From positions 8,386-72,385 of the forward strand of contig QCCZ01000003.1 of NCBI GenBank assembly GCA_003281085.1: DNA of 64,000 bases, read 5' to 3'. The position numbers and the translations under genes were made by a program. This stretch comes from OCS155 cluster bacterium AG-349-E07 (GTDB lineage: Bacteria; Actinomycetota; Acidimicrobiia; Actinomarinales; Actinomarinaceae). The notes beneath the pieces are model-generated. The model did no database searches. It was not told where the DNA came from and saw nothing but the letters and a program-made list of their open reading frames with translations. Below are positions 37,199 to 64,000 of the stretch, one piece after another; positions within the stretch are counted from its first letter, which is position 1; the number at the start of each line of letters is the position of its first letter.

Positions 37199-37536
37199 GG
37201 GGGTGAACTGGCTTCGACTTTGAAGCGAGTCTCTCAGTAGCGAGTCGAGGGTCCTAGGGCCTCGTAAAAAACGTAGGAAAACAATATAACTGCCAAACCT
37301 AAGTTGGCTTTAGCAGCCTAACCGCTGCTCGTCACCTATCGGGGCTCCCACCTCGGATAGAAATGGCGTCGAAATGTGGGATGCTGAGTTGGGTTACCGA
37401 CTGACTCTTAAGATTTAGGTAAACCTGTTAGGTTATAGGTTCCGATGACTTGCCTGACAGTAAAACATCGGATGCACTCGGAGAAGCTGTTTGATAGCTT
37501 GGAAGGACCGGGGTTCGACTCCCCGCACCTCCACCA
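37199..37536 (+). ncRNA. ssrA: tmRNA (SsrA)
   Basis: The 5' GGGGGUG pairs with the 3' CACCUCC, including the G3:U alanine identity pair. T-arm GGGGTTCGACTCCCC, discriminator A and encoded CCA. The tag ORF is GCC AAA CCT AAG TTG GCT TTA GCA GCC TAA (37292..37321), ending ...KLALAA. The resume-codon choice is tentative. Confidence 0.92.
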
Positions 37537-45795: not shown

Positions 45796-45814
45796 AATAT
45801 ATTTGCATAACAAT

Positions 45815-45889
45815 TGGGGGATGGTGTAATTGGCAACACAATGGGTTTTGGTCCCATCGTTGAGGGTTCGAGTCCTTCTCCCCCAGCCA
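45815..45889 (+). tRNA. tRNA-Gln (anticodon TTG), CCA encoded
   Basis: Hand-folded cloverleaf. Acceptor tggggga/tccccca. D stem gtgt/acac with a GG loop. Anticodon stem atggg/cccat with loop ttTTGgt. T arm gaggg-ttcgagt-ccttc. Confidence 0.9.
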
Positions 45890-45900
45890 TCAATTTTGAA

Positions 45901-47265
45901 ATGAATGTATCAGGAGTAATATTAGCCGCAGGTAAAGGGACTAGAATGAAGTCCAATTTACCAAAAGTCTTACATTCTGTTTTAGGAAAAAAATTAATTT
46001 CATACGCTCTAGAGGTTATTGAGGATATAAATACTAAATATGTTGTAGTAGGGCATGAAGCTAAACAAGTTATGGAAGCTCTGCCAGAATCACTTAATTT
46101 TGTTATCCAAGTGGAGCAAAAAGGTACAGGACATGCAATTTCAATACTGTTAGAGGATAAAAAATTTGCTAATGATACATCTGAATATATTCTTGTTCTT
46201 CCAGGCGATGTACCAATGATCAATAGCAGTGATATTAAAAATCTAATTAAAAAAGTAACTGACTCTAGTTCAACAATTGGCTTTCTTACATCTAAGGTCT
46301 CTAATCCATTTGGATATGGAAGAGTCATTCGACAAAATAAACAAATAAAAATTGTTGAGGAAAAAGACTGCACAGAAGAAGAGAGGTTGGTCGATGAAAT
46401 TAATTCAGGGATATATTGTTTTGAAAAAGAATTTCTCCTTGAGCAAATCAACAATTTGAATACCTCTAATGCGCAGGGAGAATTTTATATAACTGACTTA
46501 ATAGGTATTGCAAATAATGAAAAAAAAGATATTGTTATAGTACAAGTAGAAGAAGATTCAATAAGAGGAATAAATTCTATGGGCCAACTAAATGAAGTTG
46601 AAGACACTCTGTTAAAGCAAACAATACAACAATTCATGGACGAAGGTGTTTACTTTCAAGACCCAACCTCTACATATGTAGATTCAACTGTTAAAATTTC
46701 TGCTGGTACAAAAGTTTACGCAAACAGTCATTTAAAAGGTGAAACGGAGATAGGTCCTGATTGTGAGATTGGACCAAATGCTCAAATTAATAATTCAAAA
46801 GTTGGCCAAGGTTCAAAAGTATTAAATTCAGTGGTAGACGATTCAATTATTGATGCTGGAGGTCAAATAGGACCTTTTGCACACATTAGACCTGGTTCAG
46901 AACTAGGAGAAAATGTGAAGGTTGGAGCTTTTGCTGAAACAAAAAAATCGAAGATTGGTAAGGGAAGCAAAATTCCTCATCTTGCATATGTAGGTGATGC
47001 AGAATTAGGCTCAGGTGTTAATTTTTCTGCAGGAGCAATAACAGTCAATTACGATGGTAAAAATAAACATAAAACTGATATTGAAGACGGAGCATTTATT
47101 GGATCAGATGTCATGCTTGTTGCTCCAGTAACTATTGGAAAAGAATCAATGATAGGTGCAGGTTCTGTAATTACAAAAGATGTGCCTTCAAAAGCGTTAG
47201 GTATTGAAAGAAGTGATCAAAAAAATATAGATGGCTATATGGATAGAAAGAAAAAAAATGATTGA
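45901..47265 (+). CDS. glmU: Bifunctional UDP-N-acetylglucosamine pyrophosphorylase / glucosamine-1-phosphate N-acetyltransferase
   Basis: The start MNVSGVILAAGKGTRMKS is the LAAGxGTRM motif. C-terminal hexapeptide repeats. The track extension to 45814 runs through the tRNA. Confidence 0.92.
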   Translation: MNVSGVILAAGKGTRMKSNLPKVLHSVLGKKLISYALEVIEDINTKYVVVGHEAKQVMEALPESLNFVIQVEQKGTGHAISILLEDKKFANDTSEYILVLPGDVPMINSSDIKNLIKKVTDSSSTIGFLTSKVSNPFGYGRVIRQNKQIKIVEEKDCTEEERLVDEINSGIYCFEKEFLLEQINNLNTSNAQGEFYITDLIGIANNEKKDIVIVQVEEDSIRGINSMGQLNEVEDTLLKQTIQQFMDEGVYFQDPTSTYVDSTVKISAGTKVYANSHLKGETEIGPDCEIGPNAQINNSKVGQGSKVLNSVVDDSIIDAGGQIGPFAHIRPGSELGENVKVGAFAETKKSKIGKGSKIPHLAYVGDAELGSGVNFSAGAITVNYDGKNKHKTDIEDGAFIGSDVMLVAPVTIGKESMIGAGSVITKDVPSKALGIERSDQKNIDGYMDRKKKND

Positions 47266-53671: not shown

Positions 53672-54292
53672 ATGGCTGATATCCAACAAGACGGTAGAGC
53701 AAGACGGCAGCAAGATATTTTTGACCTTAATAGGATAAAACTTATCAATACAGCTGTTGATGTCATAAATGAAGTTGGAGATATTAGAGAAGTTACTCTG
53801 ACACAAATTGCAAAAGAAGCAGGTGTTTCGCCTGCAACAGCATACAATCATTTTCCCGACAGAATGGAAGATGTGTTTTCAGCGATTGTTCACTCAAAAA
53901 TGGATGTAGCTGCAAACATGGGTGCTACACTTGCAGACAACTCTTTAAGTGTCGTAGATAAATTAAAACAGATTCCAGTTACGTATGCAGAAAACCTCAT
54001 CAGCCTTGGATACACTGGAAAAGTTTTAATCATTCAGATGTTTAATTTAGTCAATGTAAACAAATGGCTAGACCAAGATCCAGTACAAGCAATTACAGCT
54101 TTACTGAGTAATTCTGAGGAATATAAGGACAGAGCAGATGAAATTGCTGTGAATGTGGCAACTGCATTTAGGGGAGCAATGTTTGAATATGCACTAAATA
54201 TTGGTGATCATGAGCTATTTAATAGATATTCAGAGGAGTTTTTCTTAAAAACTTCTGAAAATTTAATAGAAAACATACTAAAACAGTACTAA
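53672..54292 (+). CDS. TetR-family transcriptional regulator
   Basis: N-terminal HTH VTLTQIAKEAGVSPATAYNHF. 206 aa. Confidence 0.85.
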   Translation: MADIQQDGRARRQQDIFDLNRIKLINTAVDVINEVGDIREVTLTQIAKEAGVSPATAYNHFPDRMEDVFSAIVHSKMDVAANMGATLADNSLSVVDKLKQIPVTYAENLISLGYTGKVLIIQMFNLVNVNKWLDQDPVQAITALLSNSEEYKDRADEIAVNVATAFRGAMFEYALNIGDHELFNRYSEEFFLKTSENLIENILKQY

Positions 54293-54346
54293 ATTTTTTA
54301 AAAATAACATTTACTTTAAATCAATTCCAGTTAAACTGAAATTAAG

Positions 54347-54370
54347 TTAATTAGAATTAAATCTAATTAA
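54347..54370. promoter_or_regulatory. Perfect 9-bp inverted repeat with a 6-bp spacer (TTAATTAGA-ATTAAA-TCTAATTAA); candidate operator between tetR and the giant gene
   Basis: Read directly from the sequence. The position is suggestive, but the AT-rich background makes a chance palindrome plausible. Confidence 0.3.
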
Positions 54371-54411
54371 AAATAAAGTTGTTGTGTGTGATAAATAAAT
54401 ATTATTTTATA

Positions 54412-57400
54412 TTGTGTTGTCTTAGAGTAAGGTCGTTTTTTCACGCCATCAACTATAAAAAAATCACAACAACTACACTCCATGTCCTTCTGTTTGTAAT
54501 AATGTTTATCTCTTCTTGGGCCACACCTCAAGAAGAAGCGTACGCAAATGAAATATGGGCATGTAACGACTCTTCAGAGAGAGCGTATTTCTATAAACTT
54601 GACTGGGAGTTTACTGACAACTTTTTTACAATCTCTCAATATGTTGCAACATCAACATCGACAGTTAACTTAGATGAGACCCAAGTCAGTTTATCTGGAT
54701 TAACGGTCGGGGGAACAAGCATAACTGGTGTAAAAGGTATTAATGGTTTGGCCATGTCACCTACTGGAAAGATGTATGTAACAATCACATCTTCAGCAAA
54801 CGGTACTGATCTTTTCCAAATTAATACTGATGGTTCACTTACACACTTAAAAAATATGGGATCGTATGGAACTATTGGGCAGTTGGATTTCTATCAGCTA
54901 CCAGGTGGTGGTGGACACTACGGTTTCTCATCTGGTGAGTATGTCTCAAAAGATGGCATAGACAGAATTTATTTCTCACAGGGTGCCTTTGATACTGACT
55001 CTGATGGAAATGGTTCAGATATAGCACGACCAAATTCAAATATGATCTACAACGTATCAAACGGTACAACAACTACCTTTCCAGACCCAGGTTTCGTCAG
55101 CCCAATTAATGCTGCTGACTATGCCTATGTAGGGGACTGGGATGGATATGAGTTGGTAACATATGATGCAATCAATAACAAAATACATAGATTTGATATT
55201 GATAATCCATCAAGCTCTTCTTCAGTCGATCCACAAACAAGTGCGTTTTCTGGAGCAAGTACTGTACTCTCAGCATTCTCTTATAAAACACCCGAGGGTG
55301 AGATTCGATTTATTGTAGATGACACAAACGGTATGCGTTTTGAGATTGTAAGAAATGGAACAAATAACTATAGCGTTACACAAAAAGGAAGCTCTTTCTT
55401 AACAAACAACTCTGATGGTGCCTCTTGTGGACCTAATGCATTTGATCCATTTTCACCAACATTTAAAGCCACTCTCTCAGCATGTTCAAATGGTTTTGCA
55501 ACACCACAACTTAAAATCACAAACAACAAATCAAGCACACAATACTTTGATGTAGATGTAAGCGTAGATGGAGGTTCGTTTACGAGTCTTGTAGATGGAC
55601 AGTCGGTGGCTCCTGGTAATGACGTAACGCTCTCGGCCAATCCGGAATATGACGGCAGAACAATACAATTCCGTATGCGCTACAACTCATCTAATCCAAG
55701 TAATTTTGCAACTTCCTACAATGTAGGTTCACTATTAACTGTCAGTGGTTGTGGAAACTATACCTTAGCTACTGGTTCTGTTGCAACTGCAAATGGAACA
55801 TGTTTAGGTGATGGTACATCAAAGCCCACAATTACTCTTACAGCAACTGGTAACACGACAGTATTTTTTGATGTTGAGTACAAAGTCGGAAGTAGTGCTT
55901 GGCAGGCATTAAAAGACGGTGAGCAAGTTGCTGTTGGTTCACCAGAGACATACGAGATAACGTCAGCCGTAGCACACAACTCTTCGGTTACATTTAGGTA
56001 TATTGTTGGAGCGAGCAATCCATCTGGCACGGATTGGACAGAGACGTCTAGTGTATCTGTTAACTGTCCTGTGTACAGTATGACTGCAAGTCTAAATTCA
56101 CCTTCATGTACAAATAATCAACCATATAAGCTCTACACATTGACAATTCAAAATACAGGTAATCAACCTGCTTATGCTCACATTCAAGGAAATATAAATC
56201 AACAGGGTCAAGCCGGAACTTTAAATTGGATTGATAGTTCTAGATATATTAGTGGTGGTTCGACAACTACTGTTAGTTTTCAAATGTGGCATGGTGTTAC
56301 ACCAGATATTCGTTGGATTTACACTACTACTTCGTCAGGATATAATCTTTTAACAAGTGGTGTTAACGGATCTTATACATCTAATTCAAATTATGGATCC
56401 TATGTTAAATCTGGGGATTCCTATCTGACACTCACTGACTCAGAGGTAGACTGTTTCTATGTAGGTAATGGTGGTTCCTCTAATAACTCAAGTAGCAACT
56501 ATAGCAATACGTCAAAAACTATATCACAGGTTTGTGATGCTCAGGGAAGTGCTATTGCAAGATTTACAATTACACAAAGAGATTCAGCGAACGATAGCTT
56601 TAATGGTTTTATTGATGTTGATTACTCAACAAATGGTTCAACGTGGTCAACTCTGGCTGATGGTGTAGCATTTAATGATGGAGTAACGTTAACCTACGAC
56701 TCACCATCTACATTGTCCTCGGGATCTACTGCGTATTTTAGATTTAGAATTGACGATACAGATCCTGATAGTACAGCAGCATGGGGTATCTATACCCAAG
56801 ATATAAATTGTCAGGCTGATTTTAATATTTCACAGGCAATAAGTTCATGCACGTCATCAGGTCAAACCTCAACACTTACCATTACAAATAATGAGTCTCA
56901 GACAATTTACTACAGAGCCGTACCATCAAAAATCAGTGCCGGGCCTTTAACATCAACACAGAGTAACTATGAGGATGATGATGTACAGCTATTTTCTATT
57001 GCTGCAAATACAACCTATACACACACTACAACAAAAACTTATACGTATGGTGTTGCAAGTAATATGTACTGGAGGGTTCAAGGTTCATTTACACAAAATC
57101 CTGATTGGACTAATACTACACTCCACAATAGAGTTCACACGGGTGTAGTCGCTACAGATTGTAATCCTTCAACTACAGCTACTTATGCAATGAGTACTTG
57201 TACTATCACAGGAAAAACATCAACGCTTACAATAACAAACAATGAGTCAGCAACAATCTATGTCAGGGTTCAGCCATCAGAGGATAAACTCACAACAACA
57301 AGTTATCAGGACTCTTCCTATTATGACACTTCACCAGCACCAATTGTTTATGCCATACCTGCAAATACGACAGTAACGTATGATGCAAGTGCTAGGCCTG

Positions 57401-60400
57401 GATTTCAAGAAACCTACTCATCAGACTCCGGCCAAGTTTATTGGGCTCACTGGAGATATCAAGTTTCCTATGTTGAAAATGTAAGCTGGCAGGCTCAAGC
57501 ATTTCCTTACGTCTATGTAAGTAGAGCAAGAAATGCGGGTGATATCTCAAGTGGTTCGTATCAAATTGATTGCAATAGATATGAGACTAGCCCAACCACA
57601 TCGAATTTTTACCAATATCAATTTGAAGACAATACACACCCAAATGCCTGTATAAATGATTCAGCTTGGGTGACAAATGAGTTTTACGATACTGCTTACA
57701 ACAACAACGCAGATTACAACAAGATGTGGTGGATTTTTGAGTACTCAATCGATGATGGAAGTAACTGGTCAAATGCAAATATTTTTTACAGAAGACATGC
57801 GAATTCTAACACTTTAGATTCTGGCAATAACTTTAGATCTCCATCTTCACAACCCACAAATAATGGATGGACAGCAACTACAACTACAGGAACTCTTATT
57901 AATACTACTAACTATAGTTATAGATATTTTACTATCGGAACAAGAGTTGCCGATGGCTCCATTGTTAAATTGAGATATAAAAAGGCATTTACTCAAGCAG
58001 AATTGGCGAATGTAAATTACATAGAACTTGGCTCACAAAATAAATCACAGGCAGACAGAACTGCAGAATGTGATGTCGATTTAACAGATTTTATTGAGGG
58101 TAGTGGAGGTACTGATGTGACCGTAAATGGTACCGTCGTTTCCAATTTACTAACACAAGGTACCTGTCAAAACAATTCTAGTACTGGATATGCTGACACA
58201 CTATTTTCAATCAAATCAGATTCTGGATCAGCTATATATTACATGAAGTTAGAGAAAAAAGTTGATGGAGCTAATGACTGGACAACGGTTTACTCAAATT
58301 ATCAATTAAATGCTAACTCATTACTTCAAGAATCTGTACAGCTTAATCATGGACAAACCATTCAATACAAACTACATCTCTCACCAGATACTGGAGACTT
58401 TTCGAATGCGACTGCATATACCACACCAGTTCTGACAGTTAACTGTCCAAGTACTGGTGCACAGTTAGTTTTTGCATTAGGAGACTGTGTATCTGGTGGG
58501 AATAAACCTACAGTAACAATAACGAATACTGGCTACCTGACAGCCCATTACGATGTCGATTACTCCATTGATCAAGGCAGCAACTGGCTTGATGCATTTG
58601 GTGCAGATGTATATCAAACTGTTCTACCAGGTGAAACAAGTACATTTACCTTTACGCCAACTATCACACAGGGTCAGACTGTGACTTTAAAATACAGGCA
58701 TGCTCCAACATCACCAGTTAGTTCAGGTGCATTCACAACAGTGAATAACACAATCCTTGTTGATTGTGATGTTAATGCAACTATAGGCGATGTGTTACAA
58801 GTATCTACAGCAGCAACATGTTATGGAGGAAATCAGCGATTTAAGGTCAAAGTAGATAATGATGAAACTACTTCAATACAGCTTCAGTATAGAGCTTCAG
58901 AAGATGGAGGTACCTCTTGGCCACATACAGGAAGTGTTACTGTAAACGCATCTTATGACAACTATGTAACAATACCTGTCGATTTTCAACACGGTGAAAG
59001 CATAACATTTGAGCTCAGAACAGAACTTACACCAACATCTTCATACACCACATATACTACAAAAGGTCCTTTTACAGTTGATTGTTCTGTTGACAATTAC
59101 CTAGCATTTACAGCAACGTATGACGGATGTTCCTCAATGGGACCTGATATATTGGAATTTAGAGTAGCTAAATCATCTGGAAATATTCCAGGTGCAAATT
59201 ATTACCAGTATTTACACTTTGATATTGAGATTTCTCACGATGGTAATACATGGAATCCATTCGGACCATGGATCAAAAATCATCTCAATAATAATAACTA
59301 CATGTCTAATAGTTATTACAACGCAAGTTATCCAAGTCACTCAGGGTTTATTGATGTGGGTACTTATTCTGGTAGCAATGCCTATTGGAGTGCATATCAT
59401 TTCACAGACTCTACTCACGATTACAAAATACGTTATCGATACTACAACTCTACAAGTTCAGGTCATGACCATGCTTCTTTAGCAAATCTTCCGTGGACTG
59501 TAATGGATGTAGATAAAGATTTAGGTTGTGAATCAAATGATATTGAACCAGTCACTTTAGTTTCTACACAACAACAATGTCAGGAAAATAGAGGAAAAGT
59601 TGAGTTTACATTTACTGATACTACCGTTTCACATAATACCCCTTACGAAGAGGCAACATTAATTTATAGATACTCAACAAATGGAGGAACGACGTACTCG
59701 GCTCATCAGAAAGCATATCTGAATAACACGACTTCGTTTTTGCTTCCCGATAATACAACATTACCAAACACCACAGTAATTACTGTTCAGTGGGGATACA
59801 TTAGAGATTTTAACAAATTAAGTTCTTATTTTGACCATATTGGCACAACGGACAAAAACGGTCTTTATACGAGAATGCCAACTAGTTCTCAAAATAATAA
59901 TGACACCACTTTGTCAACAAACTTCAGAACAGTAGTATATGAAAATACTACTAATATCTCTGTAGACTGTGATCCTGATTCTACATATTCGCAGACTGTA
60001 ACTGAGTGTGTGTGTAGTGATGGTGGTGCTAATTCAACATTAACTATTAATAATAACGAAAACTATACAACCTATTACAAGGTTATGTATTCATTGGATG
60101 GTGGCTTAACATGGCAGTACTCTAATCCGAATATTGAGTCGGCTTACGACATATCGGTTGCGGCGGGGGCCCAAGACTCATCGCAGACAGTATTTGTACC
60201 TGATGGACAAACAATTACGTGGAGAATAAAAGACACTACTAATGGTGGTGACTTTGTTGGTCAAGACTGGGAATCTGTAGATGCAAGCGAGACTGTTGAC
60301 TGTGGTTGTTCTGGTGGTGTTGTAGATCTTACTCTTGGTTCTTGTGGAAATGGTGCTGCTACACCAACAGTAACTTTGGATGTGAATTCCACAGATACAA

Positions 60401-63400
60401 CATATTTCAAGATTGAGTACAAGAGAAGTACTGACAGTGATTGGGTAGTGTACAGAGCACAGGAAACTGTTACGGGTGGTAATGATGCTCAGTTACAGTT
60501 AAATGTTACTGTTCCTCACTCTGCGTCTATTCAAGTTAGATATAGAATCAGCAAAAGCACTTCTACATTAGCAACTGCAGATTTAAAGTATACCGATACA
60601 TTGATGGTTGACTGTCCATTTAACACAGTTTCGTTTACTCCAAATGCACCAGTTTGTACCACAAACAACGTGCAACAACCAAACCTTACTGTGGTTAATA
60701 CAACATCATCGACATCGGCAGCTTATGTAAGAGTTCAATATAAAATTATCACCACTGCAACAGAAGGAGAATTATCATCTGGTACATGGGTAAATACCTC
60801 TCTATTCGATGATCTCCTTCCAGCAAATGGAGCACCATATATTACTGCAGACTCGATAAATGTCGCTGAAGGCCAAAAAATAGTCTGGAGATATGAATGG
60901 TCATATACCTCAACTTTTACAGGTAATTGGACGTATGACAACACTGCTTCATTTGTCAATTGTGTGACCAATTTTACGGTTACTCAATCACTTGGTGTTT
61001 GTACTAATGGTGTCAAAGCGTCAACACTTACAATAACTAATAACGAAACATACGGAACTTTATATTTCAAGGTCGAAAGGTCCTTTAACGGTACTAACTG
61101 GGAAGTTGTTGATTCAACTATTGAGATTAATCACTCGAGTAATCTAAATATCACACCAATAGATGTTCAACATACACAAAGAATATATTGGAGAGTAACT
61201 GCATCAACAGTTCAAAATAATTTTGGAGCTGCATATTCAACAACTGCAGATGTAGTGCAGTCTGATATAGTTGATTGTCCAGTTGTTGGAGGAACAGTTG
61301 AATTCACATTAGGTAACTGTGTCGCTGGAGCACAACAAGCCACACTTACACTAAAAAACCCAGTTTCATCAAATGACAATACATGGTTTCATATTCGATA
61401 CTCAGTAGATGGTGGCAACAACTACCAAACCATAGTTGAGGATGTACAGCCTGGTCAGCAAGAGACAAGAAACGTCTCTGTACCATCTGGTCAGAGACTT
61501 AAAGTAGAATATTATCCACATACTCAAGTAGCAAGTCCTTCAGGGGTATCTTATATTGAACTTACTGATAGTGCTGTTTCTGATTGTACTTTTGACACTA
61601 TTCAATCATTATCAATGGGCGAATGTGATACAAACGGTCAGGCTACAGCTACTTATGTAATCCAAAACAATACAGGTACAGATCTACGTTACAAGATTCA
61701 ATACAAAATTCAAGGTGAGAGTGGATTTACAACCCACACAGCTGATCTTCTTGTAAGTGCTAATTCCTCGGCAAGTCCATTTACACAATCTGTTCCTTCA
61801 GGAAAATATATTGAGTGGAGATATGCTGTATCAGATGATCAAAATACACTGGCAACAGCCCCAGCCCAAGCAGCTTTACAATCAACTGCAGTAAATTGTG
61901 ACATTATTGATCCAAGTTTCTTAATATCACAAGGGTCATGTAGAGACGGAACCAAAGAAGGTTACTTCTTTGCAAAGAATGGCGCTTCTGCAACATCGGA
62001 TGTATATTTTCAAGTTGAATCAAAAGTTAACGGAGGTGCGTGGACATCTGAAAACACAGTAATTGTTGCGCCTAATTCTCAAGTGCAAATTCAAAAACCA
62101 AATCTTACAAACACTGATACGATTCAGTGGAGATATAAGACTTCCAAGGACAACGTTACCTTCTCAACAAACTATCAAGAAACAACTGTAATGACAATTT
62201 CATGTACATCACAAAATGAAGTTGATGGTTCAATTGGAAACACATGTGCATCTAATGGTTCTAAAACCGCAACAGTCACATCAGTAAATAACAGTTCTTC
62301 AGACGTATATTATTTGATCGAGTATGCACTCGAACAAAATCCTTCAAACTGGTTATCAGTTACAGACAGTTTTGGATTACCAACTCAGGGAAGTAAAGAT
62401 GATCTTGTCAACCTACCAGAGGGTAGTTACTTTACCTTAAGGTATAAGACTTCTACTAGTAATAGCTTTACAGGTGTTGAGTATAAAACTTTAGAAACTT
62501 TGGGACCAGTTAATTGTTCAGGTGATATTGAAGTAAGAGTTGCATTAGACGCGTGTGTTGATGGTACGAGAAATTCAGTATTTTATTACCGCAATAGAGC
62601 AAGCACAGGGGCACCAGCATTTTTTGAAATTGAATATCAAATCGATGGTGGAACATGGACTAATCCAAAAGGCGCACAGACAAATAATTACTATACAGCT
62701 ATACAGAATGGTGTAGAAGAATCTGTTTCAGTTTCGGTACCTTCAGATTCTACAATTTCGTGGAGATATAAAGATACACTATCTGTGAATGCTTTATCAA
62801 CAAAATCATTCGAATTGGCAACACCCACTCCTTTGTCGGTATTATGTGGGGGTCTTCTTGAACACACAGTTGCAATTGGATCTTGTGTCGACAGAAAAGC
62901 CTCATCAACACTTACTTTGAAAAATGTTGGCTCTGTTGATGTGTATGCGGATATTTGGATTAGTTATGATGGTGGAAATTCATGGAATAACCATGCAATA
63001 AGCCAGAAAGTTACAACGACTGCTGATAAGGTATTTACTCAAAACAACATTGCGAATGGATCAATTGTTAAGTGGAAGTACAAGTATGCCAGTACAGCTA
63101 CAGGTGTTTCAAGTGCTGATGAAGTAACAACGGAGGACAAAACCGCAATTAATTGTGATGAAATAGTTATTAGCCAATTAACTTATGAACATAGTTTCGC
63201 TAATTGTGTAGAGGGACAAAGGATTGGAACCTTTAAAATTAACAATCCTTCAACAACAAACAATATTGTTTATGTAGAAGTGCAATATAGAACAAAGTCA
63301 TCTCTAAATGGTACTTGGTCAGGCTATACGACAATGCCTATCGAGGCAATCAATGCTGGGTCCTTTAAAGAATTTAGCGCACCTGCTTTAAATGCTAATG

Positions 63401-64000
63401 GTTATATTAACTGGCAATTTAGATCTTCGTTAGCTAATAATGACTTCGCAGGAGCTTGGACAAATGCTTCATCATCCTACAAATCTGAGTGTTCAATAGA
63501 CTCAACATTTACGCATACTTTAGGTAATTGTGTAGATGGAGAGCAGTACTCTATTTTAACCATTAACAATACAGGATCTGTTACTCAGTACTATAACGTT
63601 CAAGTACAAATCAATAATGGAACAGCAGAGACAAAGTTTGCAAATGTCGCAATCTCGTCTGGATCAAGTGGTGAGTTTAAATGGCCAATCAGACAGGGAG
63701 AGTCAATCAGATGGCAATTTATTGCATCTATAGACACTGACTTTAGTGATGACAATTCAGTACCATCATTATCTAAGACAAACCAATGTACACCTGTCTT
63801 TACATTGCAAACTCAAACAGCCTGTCAAGATGCGTCTACAGTAAATAACAACCAAGAAACCAATACGAAGGTAACATTAACTTTGAATAACACTTCTTCA
63901 GTCGATGGAAGTGTGACTGTTCAATATAGATATTTACAAACTGATACATGGAAGACTTTAACGACCACTCCAATTAATGCTAATCAACAAAAGACCGTTG
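54412..64000 (+). CDS. Giant secreted repetitive surface protein, 3' end beyond the window (at least 3196 codons)
   Basis: The frame with positions = 1 mod 3 has no stop from 54367 to 64000. I translated it by hand across the region and spot-checked several lines. The signal peptide is ...KKITTTTLHVLLFVIMFISSWATPQEEAYA/NE. Only non-ATG starts (TTG 54379, 54382 or 54412; GTG 54388) keep the signal peptide. The other five frames contain only ORFs of 96 aa or less. Confidence 0.9.
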   Translation, partial: MCCLRVRSFFHAINYKKITTTTLHVLLFVIMFISSWATPQEEAYANEIWACNDSSERAYFYKLDWEFTDNFFTISQYVATSTSTVNLDETQVSLSGLTVGGTSITGVKGINGLAMSPTGKMYVTITSSANGTDLFQINTDGSLTHLKNMGSYGTIGQLDFYQLPGGGGHYGFSSGEYVSKDGIDRIYFSQGAFDTDSDGNGSDIARPNSNMIYNVSNGTTTTFPDPGFVSPINAADYAYVGDWDGYELVTYDAINNKIHRFDIDNPSSSSSVDPQTSAFSGASTVLSAFSYKTPEGEIRFIVDDTNGMRFEIVRNGTNNYSVTQKGSSFLTNNSDGASCGPNAFDPFSPTFKATLSACSNGFATPQLKITNNKSSTQYFDVDVSVDGGSFTSLVDGQSVAPGNDVTLSANPEYDGRTIQFRMRYNSSNPSNFATSYNVGSLLTVSGCGNYTLATGSVATANGTCLGDGTSKPTITLTATGNTTVFFDVEYKVGSSAWQALKDGEQVAVGSPETYEITSAVAHNSSVTFRYIVGASNPSGTDWTETSSVSVNCPVYSMTASLNSPSCTNNQPYKLYTLTIQNTGNQPAYAHIQGNINQQGQAGTLNWIDSSRYISGGSTTTVSFQMWHGVTPDIRWIYTTTSSGYNLLTSGVNGSYTSNSNYGSYVKSGDSYLTLTDSEVDCFYVGNGGSSNNSSSNYSNTSKTISQVCDAQGSAIARFTITQRDSANDSFNGFIDVDYSTNGSTWSTLADGVAFNDGVTLTYDSPSTLSSGSTAYFRFRIDDTDPDSTAAWGIYTQDINCQADFNISQAISSCTSSGQTSTLTITNNESQTIYYRAVPSKISAGPLTSTQSNYEDDDVQLFSIAANTTYTHTTTKTYTYGVASNMYWRVQGSFTQNPDWTNTTLHNRVHTGVVATDCNPSTTATYAMSTCTITGKTSTLTITNNESATIYVRVQPSEDKLTTTSYQDSSYYDTSPAPIVYAIPANTTVTYDASARPGFQETYSSDSGQVYWAHWRYQVSYVENVSWQAQAFPYVYVSRARNAGDISSGSYQIDCNRYETSPTTSNFYQYQFEDNTHPNACINDSAWVTNEFYDTAYNNNADYNKMWWIFEYSIDDGSNWSNANIFYRRHANSNTLDSGNNFRSPSSQPTNNGWTATTTTGTLINTTNYSYRYFTIGTRVADGSIVKLRYKKAFTQAELANVNYIELGSQNKSQADRTAECDVDLTDFIEGSGGTDVTVNGTVVSNLLTQGTCQNNSSTGYADTLFSIKSDSGSAIYYMKLEKKVDGANDWTTVYSNYQLNANSLLQESVQLNHGQTIQYKLHLSPDTGDFSNATAYTTPVLTVNCPSTGAQLVFALGDCVSGGNKPTVTITNTGYLTAHYDVDYSIDQGSNWLDAFGADVYQTVLPGETSTFTFTPTITQGQTVTLKYRHAPTSPVSSGAFTTVNNTILVDCDVNATIGDVLQVSTAATCYGGNQRFKVKVDNDETTSIQLQYRASEDGGTSWPHTGSVTVNASYDNYVTIPVDFQHGESITFELRTELTPTSSYTTYTTKGPFTVDCSVDNYLAFTATYDGCSSMGPDILEFRVAKSSGNIPGANYYQYLHFDIEISHDGNTWNPFGPWIKNHLNNNNYMSNSYYNASYPSHSGFIDVGTYSGSNAYWSAYHFTDSTHDYKIRYRYYNSTSSGHDHASLANLPWTVMDVDKDLGCESNDIEPVTLVSTQQQCQENRGKVEFTFTDTTVSHNTPYEEATLIYRYSTNGGTTYSAHQKAYLNNTTSFLLPDNTTLPNTTVITVQWGYIRDFNKLSSYFDHIGTTDKNGLYTRMPTSSQNNNDTTLSTNFRTVVYENTTNISVDCDPDSTYSQTVTECVCSDGGANSTLTINNNENYTTYYKVMYSLDGGLTWQYSNPNIESAYDISVAAGAQDSSQTVFVPDGQTITWRIKDTTNGGDFVGQDWESVDASETVDCGCSGGVVDLTLGSCGNGAATPTVTLDVNSTDTTYFKIEYKRSTDSDWVVYRAQETVTGGNDAQLQLNVTVPHSASIQVRYRISKSTSTLATADLKYTDTLMVDCPFNTVSFTPNAPVCTTNNVQQPNLTVVNTTSSTSAAYVRVQYKIITTATEGELSSGTWVNTSLFDDLLPANGAPYITADSINVAEGQKIVWRYEWSYTSTFTGNWTYDNTASFVNCVTNFTVTQSLGVCTNGVKASTLTITNNETYGTLYFKVERSFNGTNWEVVDSTIEINHSSNLNITPIDVQHTQRIYWRVTASTVQNNFGAAYSTTADVVQSDIVDCPVVGGTVEFTLGNCVAGAQQATLTLKNPVSSNDNTWFHIRYSVDGGNNYQTIVEDVQPGQQETRNVSVPSGQRLKVEYYPHTQVASPSGVSYIELTDSAVSDCTFDTIQSLSMGECDTNGQATATYVIQNNTGTDLRYKIQYKIQGESGFTTHTADLLVSANSSASPFTQSVPSGKYIEWRYAVSDDQNTLATAPAQAALQSTAVNCDIIDPSFLISQGSCRDGTKEGYFFAKNGASATSDVYFQVESKVNGGAWTSENTVIVAPNSQVQIQKPNLTNTDTIQWRYKTSKDNVTFSTNYQETTVMTISCTSQNEVDGSIGNTCASNGSKTATVTSVNNSSSDVYYLIEYALEQNPSNWLSVTDSFGLPTQGSKDDLVNLPEGSYFTLRYKTSTSNSFTGVEYKTLETLGPVNCSGDIEVRVALDACVDGTRNSVFYYRNRASTGAPAFFEIEYQIDGGTWTNPKGAQTNNYYTAIQNGVEESVSVSVPSDSTISWRYKDTLSVNALSTKSFELATPTPLSVLCGGLLEHTVAIGSCVDRKASSTLTLKNVGSVDVYADIWISYDGGNSWNNHAISQKVTTTADKVFTQNNIANGSIVKWKYKYASTATGVSSADEVTTEDKTAINCDEIVISQLTYEHSFANCVEGQRIGTFKINNPSTTNNIVYVEVQYRTKSSLNGTWSGYTTMPIEAINAGSFKEFSAPALNANGYINWQFRSSLANNDFAGAWTNASSSYKSECSIDSTFTHTLGNCVDGEQYSILTINNTGSVTQYYNVQVQINNGTAETKFANVAISSGSSGEFKWPIRQGESIRWQFIASIDTDFSDDNSVPSLSKTNQCTPVFTLQTQTACQDASTVNNNQETNTKVTLTLNNTSSVDGSVTVQYRYLQTDTWKTLTTTPINANQQKTV
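55426..64000 (+). repeat. Protein-level tandem array of at least 24 complete Cys-delimited modules (99-166 aa) plus a partial 25th
   Basis: The boundary Cys codons start at 55426, 55750, 56065, 56452, 56809, 57160, 57571, 58069, 58444, 58765, 59083, 59527, 59968, 60301, 60613, 60961, 61276, 61585, 61897, 62203, 62515, 62845, 63154, 63490 and 63787. All are in one frame. Confidence 0.85.

What the first reader, a model, noticed from the sequence alone, without database searches (positions are those of the whole stretch)
55426..64000. At least 24 tandem Cys-delimited modules with a shared signature that matches no named repeat family I know
After residue ~340 the protein is a string of modules, each ending in a (V/I)(D/N)C-type boundary Cys. 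Each has a second Cys 10-31 residues into the next unit. Apart from one ECVC and one CGC there are no other Cys. The shared signature is C-x(10-31)-C-x(3-9)-(S/T)-x-(L/F)-T-(I/V/L)-x-N-x(3-7)-(Y/F)(Y/F)-x-(V/I)-(E/Q)-Y-x(3-6)-G-G-x-W ... G-x-x-(I/V)-x-(W/F)-(R/K)-Y ... (V/I)-(D/N)-C. Examples: LGVCTNGVKASTLTITNNETYGTLYFKVERSFNGTNWEVV...RIYWRV...IVDC, and LGNCVAGAQQATLTLKNPVSSNDNTWFHIRYSVDGGNNYQ...VSDC. The alternating pattern suggests beta-sandwich domains. The T-I-T-N-x-G variants recall the CARDB/DUF11 strand motif, which is speculative. The strict two-Cys rule suggests one disulfide per module, clamping either the first and last strands or the inter-module linker. I saw no long identical DNA repeats between modules, so the array looks old and diverged rather than recently amplified.
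Basis: seen in the sequence. Interest (0 to 1): 0.8.

Follow-up and report, generated by a model that had tools for sequence, protein, structure and literature searches.

The report
Disulfide-stapled giant wall-anchored fibril protein
The region encodes most of a ~3,660-residue cell-wall-anchored surface fibre of the tiny marine bacterium Candidatus Actinomarina. It has a propeller-like head on about 28 unnamed Ig-like modules, and each module seems to be pinned shut by one disulfide, a cross-link used in the place where related Gram-positive adhesins use isopeptide or ester bonds.

Summary
One ORF (about 54388 to beyond 64000, + strand) encodes a signal peptide, a ~290-aa head and then 24 complete modules plus one partial module. 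Each module is delimited by Cys. All 49 Cys-Cys gaps alternate short (12-32 aa) and long (86-140 aa); the longest alternating run in 20,000 shuffles was 10. Every module Cys is invariant in 26 relatives at 36-94% identity.

The organism is Ca. Actinomarina. Full-length orthologues are 3,628-3,761 aa with 28-29 modules. They end in an LPxTG/[FY]AxTG sorting signal and are followed directly by a class-E-like sortase gene.

AlphaFold2 gives a confident 7-strand Ig/FN3-like sandwich for one module (pLDDT 94). Foldseek finds no PDB match at E<=1e-3. Pfam, NCBIfam and a PDB sequence-profile search give nothing significant. Profile-profile comparison links the N-terminal half of the module, including its Asp-box hairpin, to Bacteroidota SprB-type repeats (92-94% probability).

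Cys parity in 6-, 12- and 28/29-module relatives, strand geometry, coevolution and the CVC...CGC module all favour an intramodule disulfide from the end of strand A to the tail after strand G. I could not measure the distances because no model coordinates were available.

Best reading: a new stalk-domain family in a sortase-anchored fibrillar surface protein with a disulfide "covalent spine". The function (adhesion or spacing) is inferred.

The parts
53672..54292 (+). TetR-family regulator gene immediately upstream. It is part of the conserved gene neighbourhood and is a possible regulator.
   Evidence: Pfam TetR_N, E = 3.2e-7. The same position is kept in front of the giant gene in L013 and in the divergent clade L015. 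A regulatory link is inferred only.
54388..64000 (+). 5' ~87% of the giant surface-protein gene. It runs off the window end, and about 450 codons are missing, including the sorting signal.
   Evidence: The frame is open from 54367 to 64000. Candidate starts are GTG 54388 (as called in 94%-identical P0001) and TTG 54412. Full-length orthologues are 3,628-3,761 aa. dN/dS is 0.06-0.33 in every region against three alleles.
54388..54522 (+). Long N-terminal signal peptide: n-region, then KKITTTT-LHVLLFVIMFISSWA. Cleavage is probably after SWA, or after AYA at 54546.
   Evidence: Read from the translation. The same layout occurs in P0014, P0029 and P0032. The cleavage site is inferred, not predicted with a tool.
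54547..55428 (+). N-terminal head domain (aa 46-339), all-beta and probably a beta-propeller, bracketed by conserved Cys51 and Cys339.
   Evidence: The AlphaFold2 model has low confidence (pLDDT 57) and is all beta. Every Foldseek PDB hit is a beta-propeller: LGI1 EPTP, WD40, Atg18 and the fucose lectins AFL, FleA and PLL, at TM 0.3-0.49. One blade matches a designed Kelch propeller, 7ong. There is no Pfam hit. It is the best conserved long region: 55-58% identity to the divergent clade against 17-69% for single modules (most 25-50%), and 44% invariant columns. Cys51 is present in 25/25 and Cys339 in 26/26 aligned sequences.
55429..63789 (+). 24 complete tandem Cys-delimited Ig-like modules (stalk).
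- Boundary-Cys codons start at 55426, 55750, 56065, 56452, 56809, 57160, 57571, 58069, 58444, 58765, 59083, 59527, 59968, 60301, 60613, 60961, 61276, 61585, 61897, 62203, 62515, 62845, 63154, 63490 and 63787.
- Inner-Cys codons start at 55483, 55801, 56107, 56533, 56848, 57199, 57649, 58165, 58486, 58819, 59128, 59578, 60007, 60343, 60655, 61000, 61318, 61624, 61939, 62245, 62554, 62884, 63205, 63529 and 63823; the last belongs to the partial module 25.
   Evidence: Cys table; module alignments; Cys columns conserved 27/27; AlphaFold2 of module 16, pLDDT 93.9; alternation test.
59968..60309 (+). Module 13. It carries a second Cys pair (ECVC near the start, DCGC at the end) and is the most conserved module.
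   Evidence: Cys 1866/1868 and 1964/1966 are conserved 27/27. Identity to the divergent clade is 66-69%, and 48% of columns are invariant, more than in the head.
63790..64000 (+). Start of module 25, cut by the window end.
   Evidence: In P0001 the chain continues with three more canonical modules and a divergent C-terminal stapled domain. An acidic linker and the sorting signal YAITG + TM + RRGYRY follow.

Best explanation
The window holds the first ~3,200 codons of a ~3,660-codon gene for a sortase-anchored fibrillar surface protein of Ca. Actinomarina.

**Proposed route and architecture**
- Export uses a long Sec-type signal peptide.
- An N-terminal ~290-aa beta-propeller-like head is the likely ligand-binding tip.
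- About 28 tandem ~105-aa Ig/FN3-like beta-sandwich modules form a stalk. I estimate it at roughly 100-130 nm.
- A C-terminal [LFY]-[PA]-x-T-G signal, a TM helix and a basic tail are processed by the class-E-like sortase encoded directly downstream. This links the protein covalently to peptidoglycan.

**The disulfide staple**
- Each module, and also the head and the last divergent domain, is closed by one disulfide.
- It joins the Cys at the end of strand A (LGxC) to the Cys in the tail after strand G (V-D/N-C).
- The tension-bearing path along the fibre would then run: strand A, S-S, next strand A, S-S, and so on.
- This is a covalent 'spine'. It would make the stalk nearly inextensible and resistant to unfolding and proteolysis. 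Isopeptide and ester bonds do this job in other Gram-positive adhesins.

**Status of each step**
- Shown: the module array, Cys invariance, the Ig-like fold prediction, the sorting signal and sortase synteny, and the organism.
- Inferred: the disulfide connectivity, the mechanical role, the stalk length, and binding by the head.
For: **Array and Cys rule.**. All module Cys are invariant in 27 sequences at 36-94% identity.

**Anchor and sortase.** Orthologues end in LPETG, LPDTG, LPSTG, IPFTG or FA(D/R)TG, YAITG, followed by a hydrophobic stretch and R/K-rich tail. The next gene has a Sortase domain (PF04203, E = 9e-31) and is closest to class E. It is syntenic in two clades whose giant proteins share only 39% identity. 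The organism is Ca. Actinomarina.

**Fold.** pLDDT 93.9 and pTM 0.81 with strands 5-15, 18-27, 34-41, 48-56, 61-70, 76-82 and 93-99. The neighbours are FN3, C3 MG, CARDB and the Cpe0147 repeat, at TM 0.45-0.58.

**Connectivity**
1. *Parity.* In complete or near-complete relatives with 6 (P0032), 12 (P0029) and 28-29 modules, the conserved Cys series starts with a lone Cys in the head and ends with a boundary-type Cys. All Cys pair only under (head, head), (A_i, B_i). The short-loop scheme leaves two orphans that are 930-3,600 residues apart.
2. *Strand geometry.* Residues 5-15, between the boundary Cys (residue 1) and the inner Cys (residue 14), form one continuous, confidently predicted strand. 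These two Cys should therefore be about 30 A or more apart (the geometry is my inference).
3. *Coevolution.* Mean-field DCA on 679 modules (Meff 218) recovers the sandwich pairings. It ranks CysA-CysB 6th. It also couples the A-B turn (16, 18), the E-F turn (68-71) and the tail (102, 105).
4. *Module 13.* It has extra Cys at +2 from both A and B (CVC...CGC), conserved 27/27. This requires the A and B regions to be adjacent.

**Biological context.** Actinobacteria fold exported pilins oxidatively through MdbA (PMC9974433, PMC5478893). First-to-last-strand cross-links that form a spine are documented for Cpe0147 and the Mobiluncus adhesin (PMC10619420, PMC8382745). dN/dS of 0.06-0.33 shows that the whole gene is under purifying selection.
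Against: - The tool returns no model coordinates, so Cys-Cys distances were never measured. The connectivity rests on indirect arguments.
- The Cys columns are nearly invariant, so their DCA coupling depends on few sequences and on gap patterns. No natural Cys-pair knock-outs were found.
- No thiol-disulfide oxidoreductase (MdbA/DsbA) or VKOR gene was identified in the window. Only a cytoplasmic-type thioredoxin CGPC ORF was seen.
- The head model has low confidence (pLDDT 57), and no known adhesive domain is detected.
- Ca. Actinomarina is described as a streamlined planktonic organism, which makes classical adhesion less obvious.
- No expression or proteomic evidence was examined.
- The sorting signal itself lies outside the window and is taken from 94%-identical and more distant orthologues.
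Confidence: 0.62

Rival explanations
1. Same protein and same anchoring, but the fibre is not an adhesin. It would act as a passive spacer or protective brush on a planktonic ultra-small cell. Possible roles are raising effective size against grazers, keeping phages or particles at a distance, or scaffolding a glycocalyx. The head would cap or cross-link fibres and would not bind a foreign ligand.
For: - Ca. Actinomarinales are described as highly streamlined epipelagic plankton (PMC7771536).
- The gene takes about 1% of a ~1.1 Mb genome, and its length class is conserved at 28-29 modules across genera. This fits a ruler-like length requirement.
- Close alleles are mosaics. dS is 0.27-0.32 in the head but 1.46 in modules 16-24. 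This is typical of surface structures exchanged by recombination under phage or predator pressure.
- No known adhesive domain was detected.
Against: - The head is the best conserved long region (44% invariant columns; dN/dS 0.06-0.11). This suggests a specific and conserved interaction.
- Head-on-stalk with a C-terminal LPxTG anchor is the canonical architecture of Gram-positive fibrillar adhesins (PMC8286594).
- Propeller heads resemble lectin propellers, but only weakly.
Confidence: 0.28
2. The disulfides are short loops across the inter-module linker (boundary Cys B_(i-1) to inner Cys A_i, 12-32 residues apart). They would rigidify the hinges and would not staple the domains.
For: This is sterically the simplest pairing in sequence terms, because consecutive Cys pair. 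DCA also shows coupling between columns 1-15 and 104-117, ranked 9th and 14th.
Against: - It leaves Cys51 and the last boundary Cys unpaired in the 6-, 12- and 28/29-module architectures.
- The 11-residue strand predicted with pLDDT 93-97 between the two Cys puts them at opposite ends of the domain.
- In module 13 it would still need a long-range 1868-1966 bond, so the A and B regions must touch in any case.
- The Cys-Cys DCA couplings involving columns 1 and 117 are confounded by gaps.
Confidence: 0.08
3. The modules are simply divergent members of an existing family (SprB repeat, Big/I-set Ig or CARDB/DUF11). The protein would then be an ordinary member of that family, for example a SprB-like motility adhesin.
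For: The module HMM scores 257 bits on a 39-repeat SprB protein. hhalign gives 92.6% and 94% probability over 45-50 columns, including the inner Cys and the Asp-box. SprB-type units show the same two-Cys rhythm, 26/56 and 28/72.
Against: - Pfam SprB, Big_x, I-set and CARDB models do not reach threshold on any module.
- The similarity covers only the N-terminal half of the module.
- The units differ in length: 105 aa here against 82 or 100 aa.
- Full-length (1-105) matches among 1.84 billion representatives are confined to Actinomarina-like proteins and a few actinobacterial LPxTG proteins.
- Anchoring is by sortase in an actinobacterium, not by a type IX secretion system (T9SS), so SprB-type gliding is excluded.
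Confidence: 0.1

Closest known systems
Cross-linked Ig-like stalks of Gram-positive LPxTG adhesins: Clostridium perfringens Cpe0147 (Thr-Gln ester bonds), Streptococcus pyogenes Spy0128/CnaB (isopeptide bonds), and the Mobiluncus mulieris 7,651-aa adhesin (PMC10619420, PMC8382745)
   Same: Single-chain giant protein with an N-terminal tip domain, tens of tandem Ig-like stalk domains, and a C-terminal sortase signal. Each domain has one covalent cross-link joining the first-strand region to the last-strand region, so that a continuous covalent spine runs from wall to tip. The Cpe0147 repeat (4ni6) appears among the Foldseek neighbours.
   Different: - The cross-link here is inferred to be a disulfide, not an autocatalytic ester or isopeptide bond. 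There are no conserved Lys/Asn/Glu or Thr/Gln/HxDxxDxxQ columns; only the Cys are invariant.
- In the Mobiluncus adhesin the disulfide is a local 8-residue staple between adjacent strands, not the first-last link.
- There is no sequence homology.
- The host is a free-living marine oligotroph, not a pathogen or commensal.
SprB repeat (Pfam PF13573) and related ~100-aa Asp-box Ig-like repeats of Bacteroidota T9SS surface proteins
   Same: Local profile-profile similarity (92-94% probability) covers the inner Cys, strand B (S/T-L/I-T-I/V-x-N), strand C and the Asp-box hairpin (Y-S-I-D-G-G-x-T-W). Both have exactly two Cys per unit in a short/long rhythm (26/56, 28/72 against about 13/90). Both occur in giant tandem arrays on cell surfaces.
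   Different: The Pfam model does not detect the Actinomarina modules. Only half of the module aligns. The unit length differs, as do the phylum and the secretion and anchoring system (Sec plus sortase against T9SS). SprB-type arrays such as P0036 are near-identical recent amplifications, whereas this array is about 27% identical.
Fibrillar adhesin-like (FA-like) proteins as defined by Monzon et al. 2021 (PMC8286594)
   Same: Tandem stalk domains in one chain, a distinct N-terminal domain, and a Gram-positive anchor motif (LPxTG or LAxTG) at the C-terminus. The N-terminal head and C-terminal anchor polarity is typical of Actinobacteria and Firmicutes.
   Different: Neither the stalk module nor the head belongs to any of the listed Pfam stalk or adhesive families, so that pipeline would not have found it. 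Adhesive function is untested.
Disulfide-containing actinobacterial pilins (Corynebacterium SpaA, Actinomyces FimA/FimP) folded by MdbA
   Same: Actinobacterial sortase substrates whose Ig-like domains need exoplasmic disulfide formation (PMC9974433, PMC5478893).
   Different: Those are polymerised pilins with one local disulfide in one domain plus isopeptide bonds. Here a single chain carries about 30 serial end-to-end disulfides and no isopeptide signature.

Membership tests
Sortase-anchored (LPxTG-type) cell-wall protein | C-terminal tripartite sorting signal: LPxTG-like motif, hydrophobic segment, positively charged tail | tested here: met
   The signal is not in the window, which is truncated. 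It is present in full-length orthologues, for example P0001 (94% identity) ...YAITGTNVGRLIILFGSLLMLIGGLILRRGYRY and P0014 ...LPSTGSNVGSIIITLGTMLMAAGALILRKSFRY. 24 of the 26 relatives carry it; the other two (P0005, P0007) are truncated.
Sortase-anchored (LPxTG-type) cell-wall protein | N-terminal secretion signal | tested here: inconclusive
   A positively charged n-region and the hydrophobic LHVLLFVIMFISSWA are read from the translation and conserved in relatives. No signal-peptide predictor was available.
Sortase-anchored (LPxTG-type) cell-wall protein | A sortase encoded in the genome, ideally adjacent | tested here: met
   The next gene has PF04203 Sortase (E = 9e-31) and the TLTTCHP catalytic motif. 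Its best NCBIfam match is class E at 126 bits, below the 160-bit cut-off. The synteny is kept in L013 and L015.
Fibrillar adhesin-like protein (PMC8286594) | Multiple stalk domains repeated in tandem within one polypeptide | tested here: met
   24 complete modules in the window and 28-29 in orthologues. The fold is Ig/FN3-like.
Fibrillar adhesin-like protein (PMC8286594) | At least one adhesive (ligand-binding) domain | tested here: inconclusive
   The N-terminal ~290-aa domain has no Pfam or NCBIfam hit. A low-confidence model resembles beta-propellers, including fucose lectins. Binding was not tested.
SprB repeat (PF13573) | Match to the Pfam model at or above the gathering score | tested here: not met
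   No SprB hit at E<=1 on the whole protein or on 19 single modules.
SprB repeat (PF13573) | Remote homology of the unit in profile-profile comparison | tested here: inconclusive
   hhalign gives 92.6% probability and E = 4.5e-7, but over only 50 of 105 columns. Shuffled controls give 1.1% or less.
SprB repeat (PF13573) | Occurs in Bacteroidota proteins with a T9SS C-terminal sorting domain | tested here: not met
   The host is Ca. Actinomarina (Actinomycetota) and the C-terminus is a sortase signal.
CARDB / DUF11 | Match to the Pfam models PF07705 / PF01345 | tested here: not met
   CARDB scores E = 0.13 in 1 of 19 modules, and DUF11 is not listed. The CARDB structure 3idu is only a generic neighbour (TM 0.46-0.50, E = 0.02).
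Asp-box (BNR) motif | S-x-D-x-G-x-T-W beta-hairpin | tested here: met
   A strict motif occurs in 11 of 25 modules and degenerate forms in the others. It lies between predicted strands 34-41 and 48-56. Orthologues have precomputed PF02012 hits. Weak Reelin_subrepeat-B hits are also seen; reelin subrepeat B also carries an Asp-box (own knowledge). The Asp-box is a motif found in several folds (PMC2716378), not a domain family.
Isopeptide (CnaB/Spy0128-type) or ester-bond (Cpe0147-type) stalk domains | Conserved Lys + Asn/Asp + catalytic Glu/Asp, or Thr + Gln with HxDxxDxxQ | tested here: not met
   The only invariant columns in alignments of 19, 48 and 70 modules are the Cys. No such motif appears in the consensus.
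Isopeptide (CnaB/Spy0128-type) or ester-bond (Cpe0147-type) stalk domains | Covalent link between the first and last strand regions of each domain (functional analogy) | tested here: inconclusive
   Inferred for a disulfide from parity, strand geometry, DCA and the module-13 double pair. Distances could not be measured because no coordinates were available.
Classical Ig (I-set/V-set) domain | Core disulfide between strands B and F | tested here: not met
   The Cys lie at the end of strand A (residue 14) and in the coil after strand G (residue 106) of the model. There is no Cys in strands B to F.

The most novel reading that the evidence does not exclude
Serial end-to-end disulfides would be a third, independently evolved chemistry for building a covalent 'spine' through a bacterial surface fibre, alongside isopeptide and ester bonds. 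The fibre would use a previously unnamed Ig-like module family distantly tied to SprB-type repeats. It and its dedicated sortase would be a core, length-controlled organelle of about 100-130 nm, a sizeable fraction of the cell's width, on one of the smallest free-living cells known. It might be that cell's only sortase substrate. Its role would be in plankton ecology (spacing, grazing or phage avoidance, or capture of a conserved ligand), not in host adhesion.
Probability: 0.25. Interest if true: 0.75.

Novelty: new variant of a known kind. Interest (0 to 1): 0.55.

Why it matters
- **An unnamed stalk-domain family.** If the connectivity is right, this is a stalk domain that curated libraries do not name. 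It would also be an example of disulfides doing the force-bearing job that is documented for isopeptide and ester bonds in Gram-positive adhesins.
- **A redox-switchable fibre.** Unlike those bonds, a disulfide spine could be switched by redox conditions, which makes the idea directly testable by single-molecule pulling with and without reductant.
- **Cost in a streamlined genome.** Ca. Actinomarina has a ~1.1 Mb genome, yet about 1% of it goes to one protein with its own sortase. This operon is conserved across genera. The main genomic description of the order does not mention it (PMC7771536), and my full-text searches found no paper linking Actinomarina with a sortase or an LPxTG protein.
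- **A link across phyla.** The similarity to SprB-type repeats hints at an old, cross-phylum superfamily of two-Cys, Asp-box Ig-like surface modules.

Tried and rejected
- **Family libraries.** Pfam-A and NCBIfam on the whole protein and on 19 single modules gave nothing above threshold. The weak hits were Reelin_subrepeat-B, F5_F8_type_C, CBM_2, NPCBM_assoc and CARDB.
- **PDB sequence-profile search.** The module profile gave nothing below E = 0.4. The head profile gave only a repeated single-blade match to a designed Kelch propeller.
- **First AlphaFold2 job.** The head plus module 1, with an 11-sequence alignment, gave pLDDT 57. This is too weak for anything beyond 'propeller-like'.
- **Measuring Cys-Cys distances.** This was not possible. 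Structure prediction returns no coordinates, and none are written to /data.
- **Natural Cys knock-outs.** Among 679 aligned modules the Cys are essentially always present, so the search was uninformative.
- **The search for homologous proteins.** The module profile returned only 5 short fragments. P0073 returned only 5 unnamed proteins including the query itself.
- **A second family member in the window.** I tested whether the Cys-rich exported ORF 1004-3973(-) belongs to the family. The module HMM does not hit it.
- **Positive selection.** I considered this as the cause of the hypervariable proximal stalk and rejected it. dN/dS is 0.14-0.19 there, while dS is about five times that of the head, which points to recombination between old alleles.
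- **SprB-like gliding adhesin and classical B-F Ig disulfide.** Both were rejected on the membership tests.
- **Oxidoreductase.** An MdbA/DsbA/VKOR gene was looked for only crudely, with a CxxC scan of the ORFs upstream of position ~43,200. None was found, which is not evidence of absence from the genome.


Full report
**1. What is in the sequence**

The frame starting at 55426 stays open to the window end. It opens after a stop at 54367. Candidate starts are GTG 54388, which is the start called in the 94%-identical orthologue P0001, and TTG 54412. Residue numbers below count from 54412.

From residue 339 onward the protein has 52 Cys. Boundary Cys lie in V-(D/N)-C contexts. Inner Cys follow 12-32 residues later in L-G-x-C contexts. 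The only extras are ECVC (1866/1868) and DCGC (1964/1966).

All 49 successive gaps alternate short and long. In 20,000 shuffles of the same residues the longest alternating run was 10.

Cutting at the boundary Cys gives 24 complete modules of 100-167 aa and one partial module. They align on a common signature in which only the Cys columns are invariant.

Modules are on average 27% identical, and neighbours are no more alike than distant ones. At the DNA level only 19-31-nt imperfect repeats on the STLTITNNE motif are found.

**2. Whose gene it is, and its full architecture**

A search of 5.8 billion proteins found 26 relatives at 36-94% identity. Most are 3,628-3,761 aa, so the window lacks about 450 C-terminal residues.

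All full-length relatives end in a Gram-positive sorting signal. One clade has LPETG, LPDTG, LPSTG, IPFTG or FPRTG. The window's clade has FA(D/R)TG, YAITG or FGPTG. A hydrophobic segment and an R/K-rich tail follow.

Genome contigs that encode the head domain are titled Candidatus Actinomarina, OCS155 or Actinomarinales. These organisms have ~1.1 Mb genomes at 32% G+C (PMC7771536). The 10,977-nt gene is thus about 1% of the genome.

The gene neighbourhood is housekeeping: TatD, KsgA, IspE, GlmU, Prs, WhiB, Hom, ThrC and TetR.

Directly downstream, with the start overlapping the stop, lies a 542-554-aa protein with a Sortase domain. PF04203 scores E = 9e-31, the catalytic motif is TLTTCHP, and the nearest NCBIfam is class E. 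An 8-TM protein and a small HExxH protein follow.

This order is identical in a clade whose giant protein is only 39% identical.

Shorter relatives exist:
- P0029 has 12 modules, a signal peptide and LPIADTG. It sits in the same position after thrC and is followed by a second family gene.
- P0032 has 6 modules and is fused to, or read through into, a sortase.
- P0073 is a high-G+C actinobacterial LPRTG protein with the same 12-17/80-83 Cys rhythm.

**3. What the module is**

No Pfam-A or NCBIfam model reaches threshold on the protein or on single modules. A PDB sequence-profile search also finds nothing.

I ran AlphaFold2 on module 16 plus the next strand, using an alignment of 70 paralogous and orthologous modules. 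It gave pLDDT 93.9 and pTM 0.81. The strands are at 5-15, 18-27, 34-41, 48-56, 61-63/67-70, 76-82 and 93-95. This is a seven-strand FN3/Ig-like sandwich.

Foldseek against the PDB gives no match at E<=1e-3. The best neighbours (TM 0.45-0.58) are complement MG domains, FN3 domains, ApaG, CARDB (3idu), CsgC/H and the Cpe0147 repeat. The fold class is ordinary, but no specific structural relative exists.

The Y-S-x-D-G-G-x-x-W element between strands C and C' is an Asp-box hairpin. It is strict in 11 of 25 modules. It explains the weak BNR and Reelin_subrepeat-B hits.

The module HMM was scored against 1.84 billion representatives and found only 337 proteins at E<=1e-3. Full-length matches are confined to Actinomarina-like proteins, their fragments and a few actinobacterial LPxTG proteins.

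Partial matches (profile positions ~5-90) fall on Bacteroidota surface giants. One of them carries 39 SprB repeats (PF13573).

Those SprB-type units also have exactly two Cys per period, spaced 26/56 or 28/72. Their 'inner' Cys aligns with the module's inner Cys.

hhalign gives 92.6% probability against SprB-type units and 94% against Bacteroidota 100-aa Ig-like units, over 45-50 columns. Twenty column-shuffled controls give 1.1% or less.

I read this as a distant relationship of the N-terminal half of the module to SprB-type Asp-box repeats. It is not membership of PF13573.

**4. Which Cys pair with which**

Four indirect lines agree.

*(i) Parity.*
- The conserved series begins with a single Cys near the start of the head (Cys51, 25/25) and ends with a boundary-type Cys. 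This holds in the 28/29-module, 12-module and 6-module architectures.
- Pairing (51, 339) and then (A_i, B_i) uses every Cys.
- Pairing across the linkers leaves two orphans at opposite ends of the molecule.

*(ii) Strand geometry.* The segment between a boundary Cys and the next inner Cys is one continuous 11-residue strand predicted at pLDDT 93-97. By beta-strand geometry (my inference) this puts the two Cys about 30 A or more apart.

*(iii) Coevolution.*
- Mean-field DCA on 679 modules (Meff 218) recovers the C-F, A-B, B-E, C-C' and F-G pairings.
- It ranks the inner-Cys/boundary-Cys pair 6th.
- It also couples the A-B turn (16, 18), the E-F turn (68-71) and the post-G tail (102, 105). These all lie at the same end of the domain.
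- The Cys couplings themselves are weak evidence, because the columns barely vary.

*(iv) Module 13.* It has a second Cys at +2 from both partners (CVC...CGC), invariant in 27 sequences. This requires the two regions to lie side by side.

I therefore favour one disulfide per domain from the end of strand A to the tail after strand G (about 0.75). The linker-loop alternative is unlikely (about 0.1).

**5. How it most likely works**

*Shown.* The protein has an exported-protein layout, an Ig-like tandem array, a sorting signal and an adjacent sortase.

*Inferred.*
- After Sec export the domains fold oxidatively. Actinobacteria are known to do this for pilins through MdbA (PMC9974433, PMC5478893).
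- The sortase cleaves at T-G and attaches the chain to peptidoglycan.
- The ~28 modules form a stalk. I estimate it at 100-130 nm, taking 3.5-4.5 nm per Ig-like domain (own knowledge).
- The stalk presents the conserved propeller-like head.

With A_i-B_i disulfides, about 90 of every ~105 residues are trapped behind a covalent bond. Tension would then pass only through strand A and the S-S bond. The stalk could not be extended by unfolding.

This is the 'covalently linked spine' logic described for ester- and isopeptide-bonded adhesins (PMC10619420; mechanical blocking in PMC8382745), achieved here with a different chemistry.

The whole gene is under purifying selection, with dN/dS 0.06-0.11 in the head and 0.11-0.33 in the stalk. 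Close alleles are mosaics:
- The head is 93-96% identical between them.
- Modules 10-13 reach 100% identity.
- Modules 16-24 are only 47-72% identical.
- dS is 1.46 in modules 16-24 against 0.27-0.32 in the head.

This indicates recombination between old alleles of the wall-proximal stalk.

**6. Function**

The head-on-stalk layout with a C-terminal anchor is that of fibrillar adhesins (PMC8286594). However, no known adhesive domain is present, and the organism is a streamlined planktonic bacterium.

I rank 'tip-presenting fibrillar adhesin or ligand catcher' first. 'Passive spacer or protective fibre' is a serious rival at about 0.28. The conserved head favours a specific partner. The conserved length class and the allelic mosaicism fit either reading.

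**7. Comparison and novelty**

The closest functional analogues are Cpe0147, Spy0128/CnaB stalks and the Mobiluncus giant adhesin. The closest sequence relatives outside the family are SprB-type repeats.

The protein meets the defining features of a sortase substrate and two of the three features of an FA-like protein. It fails the membership tests for SprB (Pfam), CARDB/DUF11, isopeptide/ester domains and classical B-F Ig domains.

I found no paper that describes this protein. The Actinomarinales genome paper does not mention a giant, sortase or LPxTG protein.

I classify it as a new variant of a known kind: a fibrillar sortase-anchored surface protein built from an unnamed module family, with a probable disulfide spine. 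Interest is 0.55. The identity is solid. The main uncertainties are the disulfide connectivity, which was not measured, and the biological role.

Noticed in passing
L013:20977-22605 (+) and L015:19224-20888 (+), the gene directly downstream of the giant gene (outside the window): The dedicated sortase is unusually long at 542-554 aa. It has an N-terminal TM helix and a ~290-aa predicted cytoplasmic region containing a RecA C-terminal domain (PF21096, E = 9e-19). A second TM helix and the class-E-like sortase domain follow. The fusion is conserved in two clades. I know of no described RecA_C-sortase fusion.
   Followed up: partly
L013:22602-24167 and 24174-24956 (+); the same genes are in L015:20888-23279: Two conserved genes without Pfam hits follow the sortase. 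One is a 521-aa protein with a signal peptide, a ~190-aa outer domain and 8 predicted TM helices; it has a weak NF041501 'FGLLP motif membrane protein' hit. The other is a 260-aa membrane-anchored protein with a Thr/Pro-rich linker and an HESSH (HExxH-like) motif. They may belong to the same surface-fibre operon.
   Followed up: partly
window 55429-63789 compared with L001, L003, L004 and P0002-P0006: Close alleles are mosaics. The head is 93-96% identical and modules 10-13 up to 100%, but modules 16-24 are only 47-72% identical. dS is 1.46 in modules 16-24 against 0.27-0.32 in the head, and dN/dS stays at 0.14-0.19. This suggests recombination between old alleles of the wall-proximal stalk, not positive selection.
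   Followed up: partly
window 59968-60309 (module 13): The module with the extra Cys pair (CVC...CGC) is the most conserved part of the whole protein. Identity to the 39%-identical clade is 66-69%, and 48% of columns are invariant against 44% in the head. It may be a special joint or a second functional site.
   Followed up: no
L014:2386-7371 and 7655-9259 (metagenome contig, 38% G+C); P0032: A more distant lineage has a 12-module version (1,661 aa) in the same position after thrC. A second gene of the same family follows it directly. Another relative (P0032) has 6 modules fused to, or read through into, the sortase. Module number therefore differs between lineages (6, 12, 28-29) but is fixed within Ca. 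Actinomarina clades.
   Followed up: partly
P0036, P0114, P0117, P0066, P0083, P0140 (Bacteroidota-type surface giants among the HMM hits): SprB-type and related Asp-box Ig-like repeats also carry exactly two Cys per unit in a strict short/long rhythm (26/56, 25/53, 29/52, 28/72). Their first Cys aligns with the Actinomarina inner Cys. The 'one staple per unit' rule may therefore be a shared and undescribed feature of a cross-phylum superfamily.
   Followed up: partly
window 1004-3973 (-): This 989-aa exported protein has 22 Cys. By eye it has repeated peptidoglycan-binding-type motifs (L..FL...GFNPGPIDG..G..T..AI..FQ) around a central domain. The module HMM does not hit it. The even and high Cys count fits routine disulfide use in this organism's exported proteins. 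It was not checked against Pfam.
   Followed up: partly
window 37199-37536 (+) and 45815-45889 (+): A tmRNA gene (tag AKPKLALAA) and a tRNA-Gln(TTG) are present. The mechanical ORF 45814-47265 (GlmU-like) overlaps the tRNA at its TTG start, so the true start must lie downstream. The orthologue in L013 is called at 474 aa against 483 aa here.
   Followed up: no
window 54001-64000 compared with the rest: The giant gene is 36.5-39% G+C, against about 27-37% (mostly 30-35%) in the other 2-kb windows. This probably reflects its Thr/Ser/Gly/Ala-rich composition (T 13%, S 11%, N 8%), not foreign origin. It was not tested.
   Followed up: no
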